From assembly GCA_016840855.1 (NCBI GenBank), contig JAEORO010000245.1, positions 1-12,691 of the forward strand: DNA of 12,691 bases. Direction: 5' to 3'. The notes beneath the pieces were generated by a model. The model saw only the letters and a list, made by a program, of their open reading frames with translations. It ran no database searches and had not been told where the DNA came from. Below are positions 3,130 through 10,885 of the stretch, in pieces. A program made the translations under genes and the position numbers. The stretch is from Candidatus Thorarchaeota archaeon. Lineage in GTDB: Archaea; Asgardarchaeota; Thorarchaeia; Thorarchaeales; Thorarchaeaceae. Position 1 is the first letter of the stretch; each line of letters starts with the position of its first letter.

Positions 3130-3295
3130 ATATTCGTCTGGAATCCTTTAAGGTTTCTCAATTAAGACAGTGATGTGTGAAGTTGTGCGAAGAACAACAG
3201 TGATTTGAGTCAGTTTGTAACGCAAACCTCGATGCAGTTCAAAGATTGTCTACCTCTTATATTCATTCTATGTATGCTCAATATCGTGATTTAAA

Positions 3296-3934
3296 ATGTC
3301 GAAATCAGAAATCACTGTAACTAATTCACCAAAAAGGTTCGAGTCGGTTAGATTCGATATGACAAAACTGGGCGGCACGCTTCTCTATATAGGAGGCGTT
3401 CAATGGCTCCTAGGTCTGCTTCTTGCAGAGTCATGGTATCCAGGGTATAGTTCGAGAATTGATTATGTGAGTGATCTTGGAACTGGCCCAACAGCTCTCA
3501 TCTACAATATGTCTGTATTCCTTTTAGGAGTCTGCATGTTTCTAGGGGCATATTTCATGATGAAATCTATCAAGAGTAAGGTCCAATCTGTCCTTCTTTC
3601 CATTTCAGGAATTGGAGCTATGGGAGTAGGAATATTCCCAGCAGACATGCAACCTATGCATAGTGTCTTTACTTTGGTAGCCATCTTGTTTGGTGCCTTT
3701 GCGGCAATATCATCGTATAAGATACAAAGTCCACCCATTTCATACATTTCTGTGATTCTGGGTGCATTCTCCCTAATTGTATCATTTGTCTTCTTCCCCT
3801 ATTTGGGACTTCCAGCAGGTGCAACTGATACATTTCTCGGCATGGCTAAGGGCTCAATGGAACGTTGGGCCATATACCCAATTCTCGCTTGGGCAATTGG
3901 ACATGGCAGTCATATTGCACGGTCTCAGGTGTGA
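3296..3934 (+). CDS. DUF998-like membrane protein
   Basis: 212 aa, ~5 TM. YPGYS...VSDLG, GVGIFP, a conserved His (MHSVF) and G.MER.. match the DUF998 pattern. Confidence 0.75.
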   Translation: MSKSEITVTNSPKRFESVRFDMTKLGGTLLYIGGVQWLLGLLLAESWYPGYSSRIDYVSDLGTGPTALIYNMSVFLLGVCMFLGAYFMMKSIKSKVQSVLLSISGIGAMGVGIFPADMQPMHSVFTLVAILFGAFAAISSYKIQSPPISYISVILGAFSLIVSFVFFPYLGLPAGATDTFLGMAKGSMERWAIYPILAWAIGHGSHIARSQV

Positions 3935-3984
3935 GTGATCAATTCGATTCTCATATCGAGAGTGATAGAATAAAGAAAGAGATT

Positions 3985-4011
3985 CGAAGGGGGCGTTGCA
4001 GCCCACCTTCG
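3985..4011 (-). terminator. Hairpin plus T-tract downstream of the distal repeat copy and the hydrolase gene
   Basis: CGAAGGGGGC (3985-3994) pairs with GCCC-a-CCTTCG (4001-4011, one bulge) around a 6-nt loop. Followed on the - strand by aatctctttctttattct. Confidence 0.65.
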
Positions 4012-4060
4012 GAAACTAAAGCACACTGATACAGCGGTGAATGACTTCTGGTCCTACTTC
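4007..4060. repeat. Direct repeat copy 1 (54 bp): displaced duplicate of the actin 3' end, att-like
   Basis: Identical to 6469-6523 except that one base (A6490) is missing: 4007-4027 = 6469-6489 and 4028-4060 = 6491-6523. Confidence 0.95.
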
Positions 4061-4083
4061 TTGAAGAATATCTACACATTTTT

Positions 4084-5649
4084 TTATTGGAGTATTTGCA
4101 GCGACAGAACTAATTTTTGATTTGATTCAAACTGAAGAGTATAGTCTTTTCCATGACGTGGTTTTTCGTACTGTGGATAATTCGACCAACTTATTTCTAT
4201 CATCAGTTTTTCACCAGTCCTAGTTTCAAAGGACGTGAAACCAAGATTGATATCGCGCTCCTTCATTTCATTGGCTTCTTCGATGATATGAATCCCATTA
4301 TTGATTATATATTCGGCTCCTTCTTCGTCAACTAGATTGAGTTTAGCAGTAATGTGGGAACCAGAGATAGATCCTGAGGAAATGACTTTTACAATAACAT
4401 TTCCCATAATAGTAGTATCCTCTCGAAATGGCTCAGAGTAGAAACGAAGAACATCAGCTCTATTATTGACAACTCTTTGGTCATATGGTCCAGGATGCAA
4501 TCCTTCAACTAGATGATTGGTCCACACTGGACCTCCAGTAGTTCTCACTGGATCATCATAGTTGGCTATGATTCTTCTCTGCGTTGAATCAAAGGGAAAC
4601 TCTATCTCAAGGGATGTAGTGGGTAATGGCCACTGGTTAAATTCGTACCACTCATCCTTTCTAAGGACATAGACTTTAATCGATTGTTCTTTCTTGACCA
4701 CAGGATCAGCACTAATTTGCAAGTGTTTGATTAAATCATTAATTACATTAGCTTGTGCATTCGTAATTTTGAATGTACCAATACTATCAAGGGAATTAAT
4801 GTACCCATTATGCCCCCAAGGACCAATTATTAGATTGGGCTGAATGCCACCAATATCACTCACCTTTTCGAATGCATCGATACTAGCGCGACAGACATTA
4901 TCATAATAAGATGCAATAAAAGTGACCTTTGTTGAGAAATTAGTATCCTTGATGAAATTTAATTTGAGGGAATCGAGATATTCGAAGTCACTTAACAAAT
5001 CCCATAAATCGGATGGATAACCTTGAGAAGAAACTCCGTGGCTCAAAGCAAGATCATATGCCTCAGGAAAAGGTGTATTCATGTTCTCCAGCGACCCTTG
5101 TATCCTGCCACTCATCATAATCGACCAGGGATATGCATGATGCAGATTGAGTACACCATCAGTCAGGATTGTATTGTTTGTTAAATCGGAAAATGTCATA
5201 GGTGTGAAAACAGACTCAATCGTTGCATTGGTTTTCTTACATTGTGTTACAGCTTGGAGACCTATCCATCCTAGATATGAAGGTCCGAAGAAGTGGACCT
5301 TTCCATTTGACCAGGGTTGTTCAGTAATCCAGTCAAGTGTATCAATGGAATCATTAGCTTCATTGAAGGGATTGAATTTTCCATCCGAATTGTATCGGCC
5401 TCTTACATCTTGCACTACGTAATTCAATGTAATAGGCAAACTTTGAGCCATCATTTTTACAAGCCCGAAAAATCCTGTTGCATTGTAGGGATTGCGAATT
5501 ATAATGGTGTCCCGTGCCATGCCATCTATAGGGATGTGCGTAATGGTTGCAAGGCGGATTCCATCTCGAGTCATGACTCCCAGATTGAACTCAGTTCGGT
5601 ATGCGACTGTTGCATTTTGACCCTCTTTTTGATTGTGCTTTCGTTCCAT
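4084..5649 (-). CDS. CocE/NonD family serine hydrolase (peptidase S15-like)
   Basis: Motifs: V.TRDGIRLAT, RNPYN, QDVRGRYNSDG, nucleophile elbow GPSYLG, acid motif SYYD, GPWGH (His) and a C-terminal beta-rich domain. ATG at 5649 preferred over 5691 because it has a GGTGG SD-like motif upstream, while 5691 lies inside the operator palindrome. Confidence 0.88.
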   Translation of the reverse strand: MERKHNQKEGQNATVAYRTEFNLGVMTRDGIRLATITHIPIDGMARDTIIIRNPYNATGFFGLVKMMAQSLPITLNYVVQDVRGRYNSDGKFNPFNEANDSIDTLDWITEQPWSNGKVHFFGPSYLGWIGLQAVTQCKKTNATIESVFTPMTFSDLTNNTILTDGVLNLHHAYPWSIMMSGRIQGSLENMNTPFPEAYDLALSHGVSSQGYPSDLWDLLSDFEYLDSLKLNFIKDTNFSTKVTFIASYYDNVCRASIDAFEKVSDIGGIQPNLIIGPWGHNGYINSLDSIGTFKITNAQANVINDLIKHLQISADPVVKKEQSIKVYVLRKDEWYEFNQWPLPTTSLEIEFPFDSTQRRIIANYDDPVRTTGGPVWTNHLVEGLHPGPYDQRVVNNRADVLRFYSEPFREDTTIMGNVIVKVISSGSISGSHITAKLNLVDEEGAEYIINNGIHIIEEANEMKERDINLGFTSFETRTGEKLMIEISWSNYPQYEKPRHGKDYTLQFESNQKLVLSLQILQ

Positions 5650-5670
5650 TAATCTTCGCCACCAAAAATT

Positions 5671-5740
5671 TAATGTTAATTTTTTTGTCATAATATTAAC
5701 ATTACATCTTATGTTAAGATATATAAATATTTCTTAACAT
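5671..5740. promoter_or_regulatory. Two tandem palindromic operators (ATGTTAA-N16-TTAACAT) in the divergent promoter
   Basis: Site 1: TAATGTTAAT 5671-5680 / ATTAACATTA 5695-5704. Site 2: ATGTTAAGA 5711-5719 / TCTTAACAT 5732-5740, enclosing TATATAAATA. Confidence 0.8.
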
Positions 5741-5770
5741 TATCCGTCTACATATTTGGAGAGTAATAAT

Positions 5771-6424
5771 ATGATTCCTTCCAAATCTTCTGAAGCAACA
5801 TCCGAAATTGTAGAAAAAATGTTGAAAATGGTTAGAGCCAGGTCCCACTCGCTGAAATTTAAATTACTACAACTATTGATGATTTATGGCGAATTGTCCA
5901 CTTCAGAATTGGTTGAAAAAGTCGGAAAATCCAAACCAACTATTCTCAAACATCTAGATGAATTGGAAGATCTTGGAGAAGTGTCATTCCGAACGGAAAT
6001 ATCTCCAGGAGCCTATGATAGACGAATTTATTCTTCAACTAATCCCAGTTGGAGAATTGAAGGGCAAAGTCTGCGAGAACGCGTGCGTAAAAATCCTAAA
6101 CTAGCTGTTGGATACATGAATTTTCAATTATCTCAACTGCTACTTTTGAAGGAAATTATAGATAGTATGGTCGACTATCAAAAACGGTTGAACAACGAAG
6201 TAATGAAGGCATTCAACTCCAAAGAAATTGAAGAAATGATTGACTTATTCAAAGACAATCTAGGTCAAGTTCATCAACAATACCTATCCAAAGCACAGCT
6301 TCATGGAAGGGGACCGGAAACTCCAAAGGAATACCTTAAGCTGGAATTACTTTTACCAATTCGTAGATTGATTGAACAATTAACAAAAAGCGAATGGGAA
6401 AAAGATGGGTCCTTATGGGAATAG
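5771..6424 (+). CDS. ArsR/TrmB-like winged-helix transcriptional regulator
   Basis: LSTSELVEKVGKSKPTILKHLDELEDLGEV...RRIY is a wHTH, followed by a helical C-terminal region. ATG at 5771 has GGAGAG upstream (track start is TTG 5756). Confidence 0.85.
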   Translation: MIPSKSSEATSEIVEKMLKMVRARSHSLKFKLLQLLMIYGELSTSELVEKVGKSKPTILKHLDELEDLGEVSFRTEISPGAYDRRIYSSTNPSWRIEGQSLRERVRKNPKLAVGYMNFQLSQLLLLKEIIDSMVDYQKRLNNEVMKAFNSKEIEEMIDLFKDNLGQVHQQYLSKAQLHGRGPETPKEYLKLELLLPIRRLIEQLTKSEWEKDGSLWE

Positions 6425-6448
6425 GAATTAAAACGAAAAACAAGAGAG

Positions 6449-6473
6449 CGAAGAGGGAACTAGTCCCTCTTCG
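6449..6473 (-). terminator. Actin terminator hairpin, lying between convergent genes
   Basis: Perfect 10-bp stem CGAAGAGGGA / TCCCTCTTCG with a 5-nt loop. Followed on the - strand by ctctcttgtttttcgtttt. Confidence 0.75.
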
Positions 6474-6523
6474 GAAACTAAAGCACACTAGATACAGCGG
6501 TGAATGACTTCTGGTCCTACTTC
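6469..6523. repeat. Direct repeat copy 2 (55 bp): functional actin 3' end
   Basis: Encodes [11 protein letters not shown]-stop plus 19 nt of 3' UTR on the - strand. Matches 4007-4060. Confidence 0.95.
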
Positions 6524-7627
6524 CTCGAACTCTTTTCGTGAGACCCACATCTTCTGGAAGGTCTTCAGTGAGCCGAGAATGCTACCACCAATCCAGACAG
6601 AGTACTGTCGCTCTGGAGGAGCAATGATTCGGACTTCGATGTTCTCTGGAACTAGCTCGGTAATCTCCTTGTGGAGTCTCTCCTTGAGTCCTGGGAACAT
6701 GGTTGAGCCACCTGAGAGTACGACGTTAGCGTATAGATCACGCCTCAAGTCGACATCACAGGCTTTGATTGACTCGACAATGTGATCGTCGAGTGGCATT
6801 GTATCTAGCCCAATGGCACTTGGATTGAAGAACAGCTCAGGTGCCTGGAACCTCTCTGCACCAACAGTGATCACCTCACCATCAGGTAGCATGTAGGGTT
6901 TGTCAACACCAGCCTTGTCAGCGACTGTTCGCTCCCGCTCGGGATCGAGAGCTACATAACATAGCTTCTCCTTGATGTCCCTGACAATCTCTTTCTCTGC
7001 ACCGCTCACAAAGGAATAACCCCTCTGTCTGAGAAGTCTGCGCAGATATTCAGTGATGTCTCTACCAGCTAGGTCAATTCTTCGGATGGCGTGGTTGATT
7101 GAGAAGCCCTCATAGATTGGTACTATGTGGGTGACACCATCGCCTGAGTCAATGACCAGTCCAGTGGTTCGACCAGATGCATACAGTGACAGTACTGCCT
7201 GTGTGGCAACATACACTGCGGGTACACCGAAGTTATCAAACATAACAGATGCCATGCGCTCTCTGTTTTCTCGGGGGTTGAATGGTGCCTCTGTAAGGAG
7301 CACCGGATTCTCACTTGGGTCTACTTTCAAGTCATTATAGAACGTGTAGCTCCATATTTTCTCAATAGCATCCCAGTCTTCTACGATTCCGTGAGAGATT
7401 GGATAGACCAGACGGAGTACACCACGGAGGTTGATAGCCTCTTCACCAATATAGTAGTCACGTGTGTAGTGGTCCACGTCAGTCATGATTGACTCATAAC
7501 GTGGGTAACCAATCAGTGTGGGCCAGACGCTGCGTGGCTGATCTTCGCCGGCATAACCGTTCTTGCTCAAACCAGTACCATTGTCGATGACAATTGGTTT
7601 TGCGCCAAGAAACTCGTCTTCAGCCAT
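6488..7627 (-). CDS. Actin (Asgard Lokiactin-type)
   Basis: 379 aa, colinear with eukaryotic actin: IDNGTG phosphate-1, [36 protein letters not shown] phosphate-2, [41 protein letters not shown]. The [22 protein letters not shown] segment is as I recall for Asgard Lokiactins. Confidence 0.97.
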
Positions 7628-7898: not shown

Positions 7899-8678
7899 TT
7901 GATATTGCTCCGAAAACCACTTGAAGAGATAATTCGAGAAGAGATTGAAACAGTCAGAGCAAGAAGAATCATCCTCGACCAGCTTGAAGGAGGGCTGATG
8001 ACAGGAGCAGAACTCAGAGAAAAAATTGCTACTGATATCAAAGCACAGCTGGTGTCTGAGGGAGCTAGCAGAAAAGAGATAGAGAAGGTGAAGGTCACTA
8101 GTCCGAAACTCTATCATAATACGCAGCGACTTGAGGAACTTGGAATTATAGTCAGTTGGAAACAATCTCAATATCGCCTCTTTGAGTTGGACCCGCGAGC
8201 AATACATCCGGTTCGCAGGGCTCTTAAGATCTCAAAACCACTAATGTATATTACTTCGCTGAACAATCCTGAGGACCAGCGCCCGTTCGTTCAGTGGTTA
8301 GTGAACAATCAACACTTCAACCCGAAGAAGCTCTTGGTCTTTGTAGAAGCAAGTCAATGGACTCGTGGAGTTTCCAGAATTGTGGACCGCTTCATTCCAG
8401 ATGATGCCTTTCGGCGATGGACAACAGAATGGAGAGAAGTACCGGAAAATGTCACAAGGACAGAGGACGAGCGAGAGTATGGGAGTCTTCAGATGACTGT
8501 AGATTTCATAGAGAATGAACTTCTAAACCACATTCAGACTCATGATATTGTCTTTGACCTGACCCTTGGGCCTAGACTAATTACACTGGCGATGGCAAAG
8601 CTTGCAACTGAGTACTCCATCACCGCATTTCATGTGTCCACATATGATGCCAGCGACGCTGAGGTCAGCCATTACTGA
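7899..8678 (+). CDS. Winged-helix regulator with a C-terminal CARF-like Rossmann domain
   Basis: N-terminal wHTH (MTGAELREKI...VTSPKLYHNTQRLEELGII...YRLFEL). The C-terminal half has CARF-like strand order: LMYITSL, PKKLLVFV, IVFDLTLGPRLITLAM (cf. DxTxGxR/K), AFHV. TTG start uncertain. Confidence 0.65.
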   Translation: MILLRKPLEEIIREEIETVRARRIILDQLEGGLMTGAELREKIATDIKAQLVSEGASRKEIEKVKVTSPKLYHNTQRLEELGIIVSWKQSQYRLFELDPRAIHPVRRALKISKPLMYITSLNNPEDQRPFVQWLVNNQHFNPKKLLVFVEASQWTRGVSRIVDRFIPDDAFRRWTTEWREVPENVTRTEDEREYGSLQMTVDFIENELLNHIQTHDIVFDLTLGPRLITLAMAKLATEYSITAFHVSTYDASDAEVSHY

Positions 8679-8691
8679 GGAAAGTGATTCT

Positions 8692-9390
8692 TTGAAACAA
8701 AAAAACCCGATTCCTGCACTCTCTTGGAAGCCAATTCACATCGAGGAGAAACTCGGACACCTTTTCGACAGAGTTCAGAAAACACAGAGGCTAACGCCTG
8801 TGAATAATACAAGGCTCTTGAACAAGATGGATAGATGGATTCAAGACATGGAGTACATCCAAGACGGTCTGAAGAGAATAAGGGAAGACCTTGTGCCAGA
8901 ATTACAGAGATTGCTTGGCGTTGGTTTTGGTTCTCCCGAATTAATACAGGTTGCAATGTTTCAGCCTAGTACGAAGAACATCTTCTTGGAGTTGGAAACC
9001 CAGTACAAGGGAGATGATGACGACCCACTCGGACAAGAGGGGTTTGGAATGATGACCAACCTGAGTGAGATGGCGAAAGTCTTAGCACTGGTCGGTGATG
9101 GGGTTATATCATCTGCAGTCATTCAACATCTCTGGAGACCGCACCTAAGTAATGCTGGCGAGATTACCCTGAGGAAAGCGGAAATAGTTTCGAATGAGAA
9201 CATGGCAAAGCTCTGCGACGACTGGAATCTCTATGAATATCGCATCCATTTTGATCCTGATGTTCCAAGCAAATCAGAGATAGAGCACGACAAAGGTACA
9301 CTCATAGAGGCTATCTATGGTATTATTTACATTGAACATGAATACAAGCGCGTCGTTGATTTAGTGAAACATTTGATCAATATTCGGTAA
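8692..9390 (+). CDS. Ribonuclease III-family nuclease domain protein lacking a dsRBD (Mini-III-like)
   Basis: Motifs F..PELIQVAM, LALVGDGVI, IVSNENMAKL and GTLIEAIYGIIY; the protein ends shortly after the catalytic domain. In-frame TTG at 8692 follows GAGG/GTGA and avoids the 77-nt overlap implied by the track start at 8602. Confidence 0.75.
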   Translation: MKQKNPIPALSWKPIHIEEKLGHLFDRVQKTQRLTPVNNTRLLNKMDRWIQDMEYIQDGLKRIREDLVPELQRLLGVGFGSPELIQVAMFQPSTKNIFLELETQYKGDDDDPLGQEGFGMMTNLSEMAKVLALVGDGVISSAVIQHLWRPHLSNAGEITLRKAEIVSNENMAKLCDDWNLYEYRIHFDPDVPSKSEIEHDKGTLIEAIYGIIYIEHEYKRVVDLVKHLINIR

Positions 9391-10885
9391 GATCATATTC
9401 ATCTTCTCTATGTGAGGGAGCATCAGAAATCGGGAACGCCTTGTCAAACCGCCTCCGCACATTCTCAGCAATCTTTGAGTCTGCATATACTCGAACCGAT
9501 GGAATGGTACTTGCCTGTTGTTTCAAAATATGCATCAATGGACGACCTTCCTTGGTTTCATCAAGGCTGACAATATCAAAGCCCTGCTCACCACCTACTA
9601 ACAATGGGATTTTCCCAAGTGTCTTCTCACCAAGTGGAGGAGAGACCACGTCTATCACCACACTCCCGGGCTCATCAGAAATCTCATTTTCTGCATCGAC
9701 CAATTTTTTGATGTCATGAAGCATGTCACGAAGTAGATTTTGTGATTCACTCTCAAATGATGCAAGTGGTCGAGACAATACCACTTTGAACAATCTACGG
9801 TACCGGATTCGTGCCGCATACTCTCTAACAAAATCAATCTCAGATTCTTCTAACCATCGAAAGAGGTCTCCATCCGTCATTCTTGTGAATAGCCCTATAC
9901 ACTCATTCTTCGATAGGCGTTCTTCCTGCATGCGGAAGTATGTTGCTTTGGAAATCATCGCTTCAGCAAGCTTAACAGCATGATGAAGATAGAGATCACT
10001 GAACATCCAATTCCTACTGAGTATCAATGCCTCTAGCGAGTGGATGGCTTTTAGCATGAAAGCGCGTACGTACATGCCTTCCCGATTCTTGACCACGCGA
10101 TTTGTCAACATTACTCTCTCAGCTGGAAATATACCAAGCTGAACTCCGCTGAAGTGGGCATCTCTGATGAGATAGTCTGTCTTATCAATGTCAAGAGGAT
10201 GGTCTAGAAACTCAGAGAGAAGGCCCATAACAGGGTCTTTTGTATGCCTTCGAAAGATATTCACAACATCTTTTGGCTCAAAGTCATTCTGTAAGAGAAC
10301 ATCAGTGAGACTGCTGTTCAGTATCAAGTACGCGCCAAGATCTATATGATCAACACCAACCCATGCATCCAGCGCGTACTCTATTGTGTGGCTTGTTGGA
10401 GGATGTCCAACATCATGAAGCAACGCTGCAGTCCTGAACAATTTTTGGTGGTGCTCCTCAAGAAGCTGTGAGAATGGAACGAAGCATGCAGTATCCAAAT
10501 CATCACAATAATTCACAACGCGAATTGACTTCTGCGCGAGGAAATTCGTGCCGATACAGTGCTCGAAGCGAGTATGGGTAGCACCAGGATAAACCAGATG
10601 AGCTGGCCCCAACTGCCGCACATATCTCAAACGGAGCATCTCCCAAGTAGAGATGATGTCAAGCTCCCAAGGTTCAAGGAGTATTGCACCATGAACTGGA
10701 TCCTGAACAGCTTTTTGGCGGGTGTGTTTCTCACCCATTCTTATATAGCGATTATGCTCTGTGATTGCCTTCTGAATCTGTTCCCAGTCAGCTCCTTTCT
10801 GTTCACGAGCAGTCTCTATCTGAGCTTCCCGAAATCCAGTCAAGCGGATGAGCTTGATTACATCATTATCGAGATCATCTGACAT
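9377..10885 (-). CDS. HD-domain phosphohydrolase, SAMHD1/COG1078-like (putative dNTP triphosphohydrolase)
   Basis: Motifs DPVHG, RLRYVRQLG...VYPGATHTRFEHCIG, LLHDVGH.P.SH..E, DIDKTDYLIRD and LYLHH. Metal ligands H-HD-D are intact. Confidence 0.9.
   Translation of the reverse strand: MSDDLDNDVIKLIRLTGFREAQIETAREQKGADWEQIQKAITEHNRYIRMGEKHTRQKAVQDPVHGAILLEPWELDIISTWEMLRLRYVRQLGPAHLVYPGATHTRFEHCIGTNFLAQKSIRVVNYCDDLDTACFVPFSQLLEEHHQKLFRTAALLHDVGHPPTSHTIEYALDAWVGVDHIDLGAYLILNSSLTDVLLQNDFEPKDVVNIFRRHTKDPVMGLLSEFLDHPLDIDKTDYLIRDAHFSGVQLGIFPAERVMLTNRVVKNREGMYVRAFMLKAIHSLEALILSRNWMFSDLYLHHAVKLAEAMISKATYFRMQEERLSKNECIGLFTRMTDGDLFRWLEESEIDFVREYAARIRYRRLFKVVLSRPLASFESESQNLLRDMLHDIKKLVDAENEISDEPGSVVIDVVSPPLGEKTLGKIPLLVGGEQGFDIVSLDETKEGRPLMHILKQQASTIPSVRVYADSKIAENVRRRFDKAFPISDAPSHREDEYDLTEY

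What the first reader, a model, noticed from the sequence alone, without database searches (positions are those of the whole stretch)
4007..6523. Island apparently integrated into the 3' end of an Asgard actin gene (actin as an att site)
Seen: a 54/55-bp direct repeat (4007-4060 and 6469-6523, copies offset by ~2.46 kb) consisting of the last 11 actin codons, the stop and 19 nt of 3' UTR. It brackets an AT-richer hydrolase-plus-regulator cassette and has a sharp boundary on the coding side. Established: integrative elements using tyrosine recombinases duplicate the 3' end of conserved targets (tRNA, tmRNA, some housekeeping CDSs), so the target gene is restored. Inference: a conserved, probably essential cytoskeletal gene is being used as an integration target. 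I am not aware of this being described for Asgard actins. No integrase lies between the repeats, so this would be a non-autonomous or reduced element, or one acquired by host Xer-like or homologous recombination.
Basis: partly seen in the sequence, partly recalled or inferred. Interest (0 to 1): 0.9.

Follow-up and report, generated by a model that had tools for sequence, protein, structure and literature searches.

The report
Cassette array behind Asgard actin gene
The repeat marks one inserted two-gene cassette in a hot spot shared by a whole genus of Thorarchaeota-labelled archaea, where small, varied gene cassettes pile up behind the actin gene, each bounded by a copy of the gene's last codons and terminator hairpin, and no integrase is in sight.

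Summary
The 54/55-nt direct repeat is real. It is part of a larger ~110-nt module: the last 33-60 nt of the actin CDS, the stop, a spacer, a 10-bp G+C hairpin and a T-tract. In the window two modules bracket a CocE/NonD-type hydrolase gene and an ArsR-type regulator gene. The hairpin type that closest relatives carry next to actin now sits at the distal copy, beside DUF998, so the cassette entered upstream of the original hairpin. The pattern is genus-wide. 14 of 20 same-genus loci have 2-3 modules and metagenome contigs have up to 7. All modules in a locus lie on the actin strand (85 loci, 164 modules). They separate 48 distinct cassettes of 225-3405 nt with unrelated cargo. Empty sites (actin, one module, DUF998) exist in relatives. 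Twelve Asgard genomes outside the genus show no repeat. No integrase was found among the cassette proteins scanned. The window's genome has no tyrosine or serine recombinase, Cas1 or Y1 transposase hit, and 20 of 28 genus genomes lack any tyrosine recombinase hit. The enzyme is unknown: I favour homologous recombination between modules (about 0.45) over an unseen trans-acting site-specific recombinase (about 0.3).

The parts
6488..7627 (-). Actin gene (379 aa), the conserved anchor of the array
   Evidence: Pfam Actin 443 bits. It is the only actin-like match in the genome. Identity across the genus is 97-100% aa.
6430..6523 (-). Proximal module: last 33 nt of the CDS (6491-6523), stop (6488-6490), spacer (6474-6487), 10-bp hairpin (6449-6473), T-tract (6430-6448). 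It holds the right copy of the repeat (6469-6523).
   Evidence: Its hairpin and spacer type (loop ACTAG) recurs as the second and third module of the closest relative, L136. I therefore read it as brought in with the cassette.
5756..6424 (+). Cargo gene 1: ArsR-type winged-helix regulator (222 aa). Its stop abuts the T-tract of the proximal module.
   Evidence: Pfam HTH_5 E 5e-8. Homologues lie next to the hydrolase homologue in two Asgard genomes of another family, L180 and L181.
5665..5710 (.). Inverted repeat spanning the hydrolase start and the hydrolase/regulator intergenic region; a possible operator
   Evidence: Pair I10, 19-nt arms, 84% complementary. The function is inferred.
4084..5691 (-). 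Cargo gene 2: CocE/NonD-family (Peptidase_S15 + PepX_C) hydrolase, 535 aa
   Evidence: Found in 0 of 27 other genus genomes and in 13 of 301 Asgard genomes. Best relatives are 70%, 54% and 44% identical.
3966..4060 (-). Distal module: actin-like 33 nt (4028-4060), stop remnant lacking its A (4026-4027), spacer (4012-4025), hairpin (3985-4011), T-rich tail (3966-3984). It holds the left copy of the repeat (4007-4060).
   Evidence: Its hairpin and tail type matches the actin-proximal module of relatives L033, L049 and L136. I read it as the original actin terminator, displaced by the insertion.
3296..3934 (+). DUF998 gene, convergent with the array. In relatives it is the neighbour of actin at the empty site.
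   Evidence: Pfam DUF998. Adjacent to the actin module in L049, L056, L062 and L132.

Best explanation
The repeat is the pair of junctions left by reciprocal (Campbell-type) recombination. A resident 'module' sits at the 3' end of actin and comprises the last codons, stop, spacer, hairpin and T-tract. It recombined with a similar module carried on an incoming circular DNA that held the hydrolase-regulator pair. The crossover lay in the 54 nt upstream of the hairpin. As a result actin keeps an intact end but now has the incoming hairpin and terminator. The original hairpin, preceded by a 33-nt actin-like stub, was pushed 2.46 kb away next to DUF998. The same process, repeated and reversed in many lineages of this genus, built arrays of up to seven co-oriented modules separating small cassettes. 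SHOWN: the module anatomy, the polarity of the insertion, empty sites, different cargo at the same site, arrays, strict co-orientation, restriction to the genus, exchange of cassettes between lineages, and the absence of detectable integrase genes. INFERRED: that the incoming DNA was circular, and that the enzyme is the host's general homologous-recombination machinery acting on the ~110-nt modules. Under this reading the modules also homogenise one another by gene conversion, and no dedicated site-specific recombinase is involved. My odds: insertion by recombination at the module about 0.9; the homologous-recombination step about 0.45. The confidence given is for the whole statement, including that step.
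For: The distal hairpin and tail match the actin-proximal module of L033, L049 and L136. The proximal hairpin and spacer match the 2nd and 3rd modules of L136. Recurrence: 14 of 20 same-genus loci have at least 2 modules, and metagenome contigs have up to 7. In 85 loci holding 164 modules, none mixes strands; there are 48 distinct cassettes in 33 families. Empty sites are seen. No recombinase was found: Pfam scans of 37 cassette or cassette-neighbour proteins gave no integrase. G000 has 0 hits for PF00589 (E<=10), PF00239, PF01867 and PF01797. 20 of 28 genus genomes have no PF00589 hit. None of the 18 integrase-bearing contigs holds a module or a tRNA. No viral contig holds a module. Signs of homologous exchange and conversion: L053 and L077 are 99.7% identical over 5.2 kb and diverge inside the hairpin of module 4, and module 3 carries a patch of 5 differences in about 45 nt. 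The CitMHS cassette is 98.6-99% identical between arrays whose actin region is 92.7% identical, and it sits at a different array position. Secondary modules are closer to their own primary than to the mean of the others in 34 of 42 cases, and best or tied-best in 9 of 42 (rows are not independent). Partial modules also occur, either hairpin only or CDS part only. Gene orientation in cassettes is unbiased at 31:32, so the genes bring their own promoters.
Against: No recombination event was observed directly. Logan contigs (k=31) cannot bridge the 33-nt exact repeat, and no circular junction was seen. The actin-like part of secondary modules starts at a clustered position: 24 of 40 lie 47-54 nt before the stop, many exactly at the AAGAAGGAG codons. 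The right end is always just after the T-tract. Defined ends like these are what a site-specific att or attC-like site would show, although inheritance from a few founder modules also explains them. Cassettes are tidy, with genes abutting modules within 0-40 nt. Homologous recombination alone does not explain how new genes become so neatly framed. The same genome has 3'-part duplications at tRNA-Asp and tRNA-Val genes bracketing small cargo, which is the classical signature of integrases. MAGs commonly lose mobile-element contigs, and G000 is 92% complete, so absence of recombinase hits is weak evidence. Twelve other Asgard genomes have a conserved actin and presumably recombination proteins but no array.
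Confidence: 0.45

Rival explanations
1. An integron-like capture system with an unknown site-specific recombinase acting in trans. The module would serve as attI at actin and as an attC-like site on each cassette. The enzyme would be encoded elsewhere, on an unbinned element or as a protein family not yet recognised as a recombinase. It would cut at defined points of the module.
For: Module ends are defined: the left boundary is clustered at -47 to -54 in 24 of 40 secondary modules, and the right end is always after the T-tract. A structured hairpin is conserved, with two compensated stem types and free loops. Arrays are strictly co-oriented. Cassettes are compact and gene-sized. The same module type (spacer plus ACTAG-loop hairpin) sits next to different cargo in the window and in L136. 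Some secondary modules are 100% identical, over the columns compared, to the primary module of another lineage, as expected for an att site that travels with its cassette. The system is restricted to one genus. The same genome has tRNA 3'-part duplications without an integrase.
Against: No candidate enzyme was found. G000 has 0 hits for tyrosine or serine recombinase, Cas1 or Y1-HUH, and none was found in or beside the arrays examined. The conserved neighbour p259 resembles Csa3_N/HFX_2341-type regulators at low scores, not a recombinase. The module does not fold like an attC: only a 10-bp stem forms, and no Rfam family matches. Partial and eroded modules are frequent, and sequence patches look like gene conversion.
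Confidence: 0.3
2. The cassettes are decayed remains of ordinary integrase-encoding elements (proviruses or integrative plasmids). These would have used a roughly 50-nt attB in the actin 3' end, integrated in tandem, and then lost their integrase and most genes.
For: The architecture is that of tRNA-targeted islands with tandem accretion and scattered partial att copies, as described for tycheposons (passages of 10.1101/2020.12.28.424599). Many MAG contigs break at or just after the actin 3' end (G001, G019, G007, G008, G009, G016). Larger elements may therefore be unassembled. 8 of 28 genus genomes do carry tyrosine recombinases on short contigs.
Against: The 37 cassette or cassette-neighbour proteins scanned gave no integrase or fragment. 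Most of the 48 distinct cassettes are 0.2-1.6 kb, and the largest is 3.4 kb. G000 has no PF00589 match even at E<=10. The 18 integrase contigs hold no module. 0 viral contigs hold one. The cargo pair is a self-contained unit also found without modules in another Asgard family.
Confidence: 0.12
3. Local duplication without horizontal insertion. The actin terminator region would have been copied by unequal crossing-over or replication slippage and reused as a terminator for neighbouring genes, and the neighbours would be ancestral.
For: The hairpin plus T-tract looks like a terminator, and genes on both strands end at it. Secondary modules tend to resemble their own primary.
Against: The cargo is absent from all 27 other genus genomes searched and patchy across the phylum. 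Gene content between modules differs completely among close relatives, while the other flank of actin is syntenic in 19 of 19 loci. Empty sites exist. The CitMHS cassette is 98.6-99% identical between lineages whose actin region is 92.7% identical.
Confidence: 0.05
4. An assembly artefact: a chimera of two strains joined through the short repeat.
For: The window is a 12.7-kb MAG contig, and contamination of the bin is 6.3%. No laid contig bridges either junction by 31 nt or more on both sides.
Against: The exact shared stretches are only 33 and 21 nt, shorter than usual final k-mers and reads. The cassette sequence occurs with 0 differences from 4031 to 6493 in a run of another study, and parts of it occur in two further studies. 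The same architecture is seen in dozens of independent assemblies, including contigs of 177-265 kb.
Confidence: 0.03

Closest known systems
tRNA-seeded genomic islands with tandem integrations (tycheposons of Prochlorococcus; preprint 10.1101/2020.12.28.424599, passages read)
   Same: The 3' part of a conserved gene is duplicated at each insertion. Newcomers push older inserts outward. Partial target copies are scattered through a hypervariable island. The cargo consists of accessory genes.
   Different: The target here is a protein-coding actin gene plus its terminator hairpin. No tyrosine recombinase or remnant was found among the cassette proteins scanned or anywhere in the genome. The cassettes are much smaller (median about 0.7 kb).
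Integrons and integrase-less attC clusters (CALINs) reported in Archaea, enriched in Asgard (PMC9668308, passages read)
   Same: A fixed platform is followed by a co-oriented array of small cassettes separated by structured repeats of about 100 nt. An integrase is often missing from the MAG.
   Different: The repeat is a copy of the platform gene's own 3' end plus a simple 10-bp hairpin, not an attC fold. ORFs point both ways, 31:32. There is no IntI and no PF00589 hit in the genome. Whether that study's attC screen flagged these loci is unknown, because its data files were not seen.
Integrative elements that target the 3' end of protein-coding genes (SGI1 at trmE, PMC8409611; PAISt at bacA, PMC4057263; both seen only as abstracts in the listing). 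Casposons at the aEF-2 3' end are recalled from memory.
   Same: A conserved protein gene's 3' end serves as the attachment site, and the gene is restored by the element's own copy.
   Different: Those elements encode their own integrase or casposase and are large. Here no such gene was found, and the site accumulates many tiny cassettes.
Known Asgard mobile elements: aloposons and HeimV/HeimM at tRNA sites (PMC8813620, passages); Atabeyarchaeia integrated elements with an 11-bp att and tyrosine integrases (PMC11529989, passages)
   Same: They show site-specific integration in Asgard chromosomes.
   Different: They use tRNA or AT-rich 11-bp sites, are 8-44 kb long, and carry integrases. In those two papers 'actin' occurs once and zero times respectively, never as a target (find mode only).
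IMEX elements that exploit host Xer at dif (recalled, not checked in a paper)
   Same: They are integrase-less elements that integrate in tandem at one chromosomal site using a host enzyme.
   Different: The window's genome has no Xer-type (PF00589) gene, and 20 of 28 genus genomes have no such hit. The site is a gene end, not dif.

Membership tests
Integrase-mediated integrative element (tyrosine recombinase, tRNA-island type) | Direct repeats (attL/attR) made of the target's 3' part flank the insert, and the target gene is left intact | tested here: met
   54/55-nt repeat; the actin ORF is complete at 379 aa
Integrase-mediated integrative element (tyrosine recombinase, tRNA-island type) | Empty site in relatives, and different cargo at the same site | tested here: met
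Integrase-mediated integrative element (tyrosine recombinase, tRNA-island type) | An integrase gene (or remnant) inside the element or in the genome | tested here: not met
   No integrase family among the 37 proteins scanned. PF00589 gives 0 hits in G000 at E<=10. PF00239 gives 0.
Integrase-mediated integrative element (tyrosine recombinase, tRNA-island type) | A free attP-bearing form (virus, plasmid or circle) | tested here: not met
   0 viral contigs with a module. None on 18 integrase contigs. Contigs cannot show circles.
Integron / CALIN | IntI-type tyrosine recombinase next to attI | tested here: not met
   The neighbours of actin are p259, an RNase III-domain protein and an HD protein.
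Integron / CALIN | attC sites: imperfect palindromes that fold over their whole length with R''/L''-L'/R' boxes | tested here: inconclusive
   Folding gives only one 10-bp stem within 111 nt. No Rfam match. The dedicated attC model of IntegronFinder was not available.
Integron / CALIN | Array of short cassettes, mostly one promoterless ORF in one orientation | tested here: not met
   An array is present, but ORFs are 31 '+' to 32 '-' relative to the modules, and some cassettes hold 2-4 genes.
Casposon | Cas1-type casposase, terminal inverted repeats, short target-site duplication | tested here: not met
   PF01867 gives 0 hits. No inverted repeat at the cassette ends or between module ends. The duplication is 54 to about 110 nt.
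IS200/IS605-type (hairpin-guided, Y1 HUH transposase) | TnpA (Y1_Tnp) available, and subterminal hairpins at both ends | tested here: not met
   PF01797 gives 0 hits in G000. There is one TnpB elsewhere, on C54.
IMEX (Xer-dependent) | A host XerA/XerCD and a dif-like site | tested here: not met
   No PF00589 hit in G000 or in 20 of 28 genus genomes. A dif consensus was not tested.
Additive flexible genomic island maintained by homologous recombination | Conserved anchor, hypervariable content among close strains, identity tracts that end at shared repeats | tested here: met
   The dependence on RadA is not testable with these tools.

The most novel reading that the evidence does not exclude
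Thorarchaeota of this genus have a gene-capture platform of a new kind. It is integron-like in layout, but it is built on the 3' end and terminator hairpin of the actin gene. A recombinase of a family not yet recognised, or a host factor recruited to the hairpin, would insert and excise gene-sized cassettes at defined points of a ~110-nt module. The same activity may explain the integrase-less cassettes at tRNA genes in the same genome.
Probability: 0.3. Interest if true: 0.85.

Novelty: new variant of a known kind. Interest (0 to 1): 0.62.

Why it matters
Three points make this worth following up. First, it shows that the gene for a hallmark 'eukaryotic signature' protein doubles as the anchor of the most variable stretch of its neighbourhood. 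That gives a concrete, recurrent entry point for horizontally acquired genes in an Asgard lineage. Second, none of the cassette genes scanned and none of the window genome's assembled contigs yielded a known integrase. That raises a testable question: can short structured repeats and general recombination build integron-like arrays, or is there an unrecognised archaeal recombinase? Third, it has practical uses. The module is a compact marker (about 110 nt, genus-specific) for finding accessory genes and strain variation in Thorarchaeota metagenomes. It also explains why MAG contigs of this genus so often break right behind actin. My full-text searches for such an actin-linked site and find-mode readings of three Asgard papers turned up no description of it.

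Tried and rejected
Read evidence. The stretch 3600-7000 is held by runs of at least 6 studies. Only Logan contigs (k=31) could be laid, and they break at the 33-nt exact repeat, so neither junction is bridged and no circular junction can be shown. One contig of run X2 covers 4031-6493 (2463 nt, exactly one repeat period) without a difference. That length is what a cycle in a de Bruijn graph gives for a direct repeat as well as for a circle, so I draw nothing from it. In X7 a contig covering 3890-4060 carries the A that the window's left copy lacks. In X1 and X10 contigs ending at 4027 go on with A-GATACAGC. This may be the empty-site allele or a cassette allele with an intact stop remnant, and I could not tell which. 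X1 showed no cover over 4127-6380, but only about 66% of the run was read, so this is not absence. A joint 3912->6437 was seen in one X7 contig, laid at 90% likeness, and may come from a related strain.

Terminal inverted repeats between the module's two ends: none beyond chance (95.5% of 2000 shuffles scored as well).

Rfam: no family.

Breakpoint mapping by megablast at 96% identity or more gave only 9 internal ends. All lay at trivial module edges or outside modules.

The 183-aa cassette shared by L035, L038 and L044 was too diverged to map junctions.

Viral contigs: the 24-nt and 21-nt patterns gave 0 hits. The 15-mer gave 24 contigs, all of which matched only the 15-mer region at 7.5-12.5 bits.

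p259, the conserved neighbour on the other side of actin, was checked as a possible recombinase. Atlas leads point to Csa3_N/HFX_2341-like regulators at scores of 0.75-0.78, and the two hits at 0.9 or above are unnamed clusters. I rejected it as a candidate.

A bulge-helix-bulge fold for the 30-nt insert seen in some actin genes: not found.


Full report
OBSERVATION. The repeat exists as described. The repeat finder gives exact copies at 4028-4060/6491-6523 and 4007-4027/6469-6489. The pairwise alignment joins them into 54 vs 55 nt with one gap, and the left copy lacks the A of the stop codon. The 33-mer occurs twice in the window and in none of 200 shuffles. The right copy is the last 11 codons, the stop and the 3' flank of ORF 6488-7627(-), which scores 443 bits on Pfam Actin. 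It is the only actin-like match in the 3.36-Mb, 92%-complete genome. The window is the whole of contig C220. Between the copies lie a Peptidase_S15/PepX_C (CocE/NonD-type) hydrolase gene (4084-5691, -) and an ArsR-type regulator gene (5756-6424, +). Cassette GC is 0.377, against 0.419 for the genome and 0.495 for actin.

THE REPEATED UNIT IS LARGER. Downstream of the 54 nt, both copies continue with a 10-bp G+C hairpin (6449-6473 and 3985-4011) and a T-rich tail. These parts are diverged in sequence but alike in form. A profile built from the actin 3' ends of relatives matches the distal copy over profile positions 47-145. I call this unit the module: the last 33-60 nt of the CDS, the stop, about 12 nt of spacer, the hairpin and the T-tract. 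Across 73 modules with a hairpin region there are 57 different hairpin sequences. They fall into two stem types, each internally complementary, and the loops vary freely. In G000 the module and the hairpin occur only at this locus.

GENUS-WIDE ARRAY. Actin is 97-100% identical in protein across same-genus genomes. I fetched 19 same-genus loci and one from another family. On the 5' side of actin, p259 and the RNase III-domain gene are present in 19 of 19 same-genus loci. On the 3' side gene content differs from genome to genome, and the window's hydrolase and regulator are in none of them. With the window included, 14 of 20 same-genus loci have 2-3 modules. Four of the six single-module loci have less than 700 nt of sequence after actin. 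A 24-nt pattern from the module found 33 metagenome stretches carrying up to 7 (L053), 6 (L060) and 5 (L077, L068) modules. It also found 31 genome-collection stretches. Of these, 25 are titled Candidatus Thorarchaeota, 2 Promethearchaeota archaeon and 4 uncultured archaeon. Over all 85 loci there are 164 modules, and no locus has modules on both strands. The collections overlap, so the loci are not all independent. The 79 inter-module segments collapse to 48 distinct cassettes (95% identity, 80% cover) of 225-3405 nt, in 33 families. Cargo that was scanned includes an ABC transporter, a deaminase, a nitroreductase, DUF1801, a solute-binding protein, an HNH endonuclease and many proteins without a family. 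ORFs point both ways relative to the modules (31:32), and their stops usually abut a module. Even the 'flank' genes GNAT and CitMHS lie between modules in some arrays (L053, L058, L060). Twelve Asgard genomes outside the genus, one of them in the same order, show no copy of their actin 3' end within 0.6-8 kb downstream.

EMPTY SITES AND POLARITY. The predicted empty site (actin, one module, DUF998) is present in L049, L056 and L062 and L132. In L033, L049 and the closest relative L136, the module next to actin has the hairpin and tail type that the window carries at its distal copy. L136 is 91% identical in DNA over 5.1 kb. The window's proximal hairpin and spacer (loop ACTAG) recur as the second and third modules of L136. 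The cassette therefore entered between the actin stop region and the original hairpin, bringing its own hairpin and a 33-nt actin-like stub. This is what reciprocal recombination between a resident module and a module on a circular DNA produces, with the crossover in the 54 identical nt.

ORIGIN OF THE CARGO. The hydrolase is found in 0 of 27 other genus genomes and in 13 of 301 Asgard genomes. The best database relatives are 70%, 54% and 44% identical. In two genomes of another Asgard family (L180, L181) a homologue of the regulator lies next to the hydrolase homologue, and no module is nearby. The pair is thus a travelling two-gene unit that acquired its module framing in this array.

MOVEMENT BETWEEN LINEAGES. 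L053 and L077 are 99.7% identical from actin through three cassettes (5.2 kb). They part inside the hairpin of module 4, and beyond it DUF998 is only 85% identical. Module 3 carries 5 differences within about 45 nt in an otherwise identical stretch, which looks like a conversion patch. The CitMHS cassette is 98.6-99% identical between L053 and L058, whose actin region is 92.7% identical, and it sits at array position 5 in one and 2 in the other. Secondary modules are more like their own primary than like the average foreign primary in 34 of 42 cases, and best or tied-best in 9 of 42. Several, however, are 100% identical over the compared columns to the primary of another lineage (rows are not independent).

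THE ENZYME. No integrase family matched any of the 37 cassette or cassette-neighbour proteins scanned. G000 has no hit for tyrosine recombinase (even at E<=10), serine recombinase, Cas1 or Y1 transposase, although the control genomes gave hits. Only 8 of 28 genus genomes have any tyrosine recombinase hit, all on other contigs, and the 18 such contigs fetched hold neither a module nor a tRNA. No viral contig carries a module. A Xer or integrase route is therefore unsupported, with the caveat that MAGs tend to lose mobile elements. Some features argue for a dedicated, still unseen recombinase. The module ends are defined: 24 of 40 left boundaries lie 47-54 nt before the stop. The cassettes are tidy. 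In the same genome, 45-63-nt duplications of the 3' parts of tRNA-Asp and tRNA-Val bracket small integrase-less cargo. I put homologous recombination between modules at about 0.45, a trans-acting unknown site-specific recombinase at about 0.3, decayed integrase elements at about 0.12, purely local duplication at about 0.05 and an assembly artefact at about 0.03.

ASSEMBLY. Logan contigs of runs from other studies reproduce the cassette: 4031-6493 without a difference in X2, and parts of it in X7 and X10. They cannot bridge the 33-nt exact repeat. The exact shared stretches are shorter than normal reads, and the architecture recurs in many independent assemblies, so a chimera is unlikely. It is not formally excluded for this contig.

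COMPARISON AND NOVELTY. The nearest known things are listed here.
- tRNA-seeded islands with tandem integrations, the tycheposons (passages read).
- Integrons and CALINs reported in Asgard MAGs (passages read).
- Islands at 3' ends of protein genes such as trmE and bacA (abstracts in the listing).
- Described Asgard elements at tRNA or 11-bp sites (passages read).
The locus shares its layout with the first two and its target logic with the third. It fails the defining test of each, which is an integrase, or an attC fold and one-way ORFs. My searches found no description of actin as an integration site. I file it as a new variant of a known kind, a recombination hot spot or additive island at a conserved gene's 3' end. 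The bolder reading, a new capture system, remains open at about 0.3.

Noticed in passing
L057, L066, L084 (one sequence type) and L063 (another); not in the window: The actin gene of these contigs carries a 30-nt insert after the codons for W-S-Y-T, with two in-frame TAG stops. It differs at 2 of 30 positions between the two types, and both fold into the same small hairpin. No canonical bulge-helix-bulge was seen. It could be a mini-intron, a bypass element or a pseudogene. L036, which shares the first cassette type, lacks it.
   Followed up: partly
G000 contigs C249 (133-195 / 1704-1766), C100 (5557-5601 / 6490-6534), C34 (458-503 / 2823-2868); loci L087-L089: The 3' parts of tRNA-Asp and tRNA-Val, and a tRNA-3'-end-like 46-mer, are repeated 0.9-2.4 kb away. 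They bracket small cargo (thioesterase plus hemerythrin; a 229-aa ORF; a radical-SAM protein plus a 219-aa ORF) with no integrase family hit among the cargo ORFs scanned. The architecture is the same as at actin. Only 10 such local direct-repeat pairs exist in the genome.
   Followed up: partly
Genus genomes G000-G043: 20 of 28 genus genomes, including one 97% complete in 50 contigs, have no Pfam Phage_integrase (Xer-type) match, while all 14 control genomes do. Either chromosome-dimer resolution works differently here, or the enzyme is too diverged for the model.
   Followed up: no
G001:C12, G019:C205, G007:C115, G008:C181, G009:C188, G016:C178: MAG contigs of this genus often end inside the last codons of actin or within 700 nt after it. 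This is as expected if strain-variable cassette arrays break assemblies there.
   Followed up: partly
window 7899-8678(+), 8602-9390(+), 9377-10885(-): A conserved trio lies on the 5' side of actin. It comprises an unnamed 259-aa protein (Atlas leads to Csa3_N/HFX_2341-like regulators at 0.75-0.78), a protein with a C-terminal RNase III domain, and an HD/HD_assoc_2 protein. The first two are syntenic in 19 of 19 genus loci. The first two ORFs overlap by 77 nt as listed, so one start is probably mis-set.
   Followed up: partly
G000 C54 (2452-2565 / 4471-4584) and C230 (1463-1553 / 3237-3327); loci L095, L094: Direct repeats of 92-114 nt flank a TnpB (OrfB_IS605) gene on C54, and two unnamed ORFs on C230. 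They share a similar motif, so this is probably one IS-like family. No Y1 transposase is found in the genome.
   Followed up: no
L036, L040, L046, L057, L058, L071, L077, L085, L127, L131, L133: Nine distinct 'cassettes' are only 225-297 nt long. Two have no ORF of 60 aa or more, and seven have one of 69-104 aa, some looking like small membrane peptides. Their status as genes is untested.
   Followed up: no
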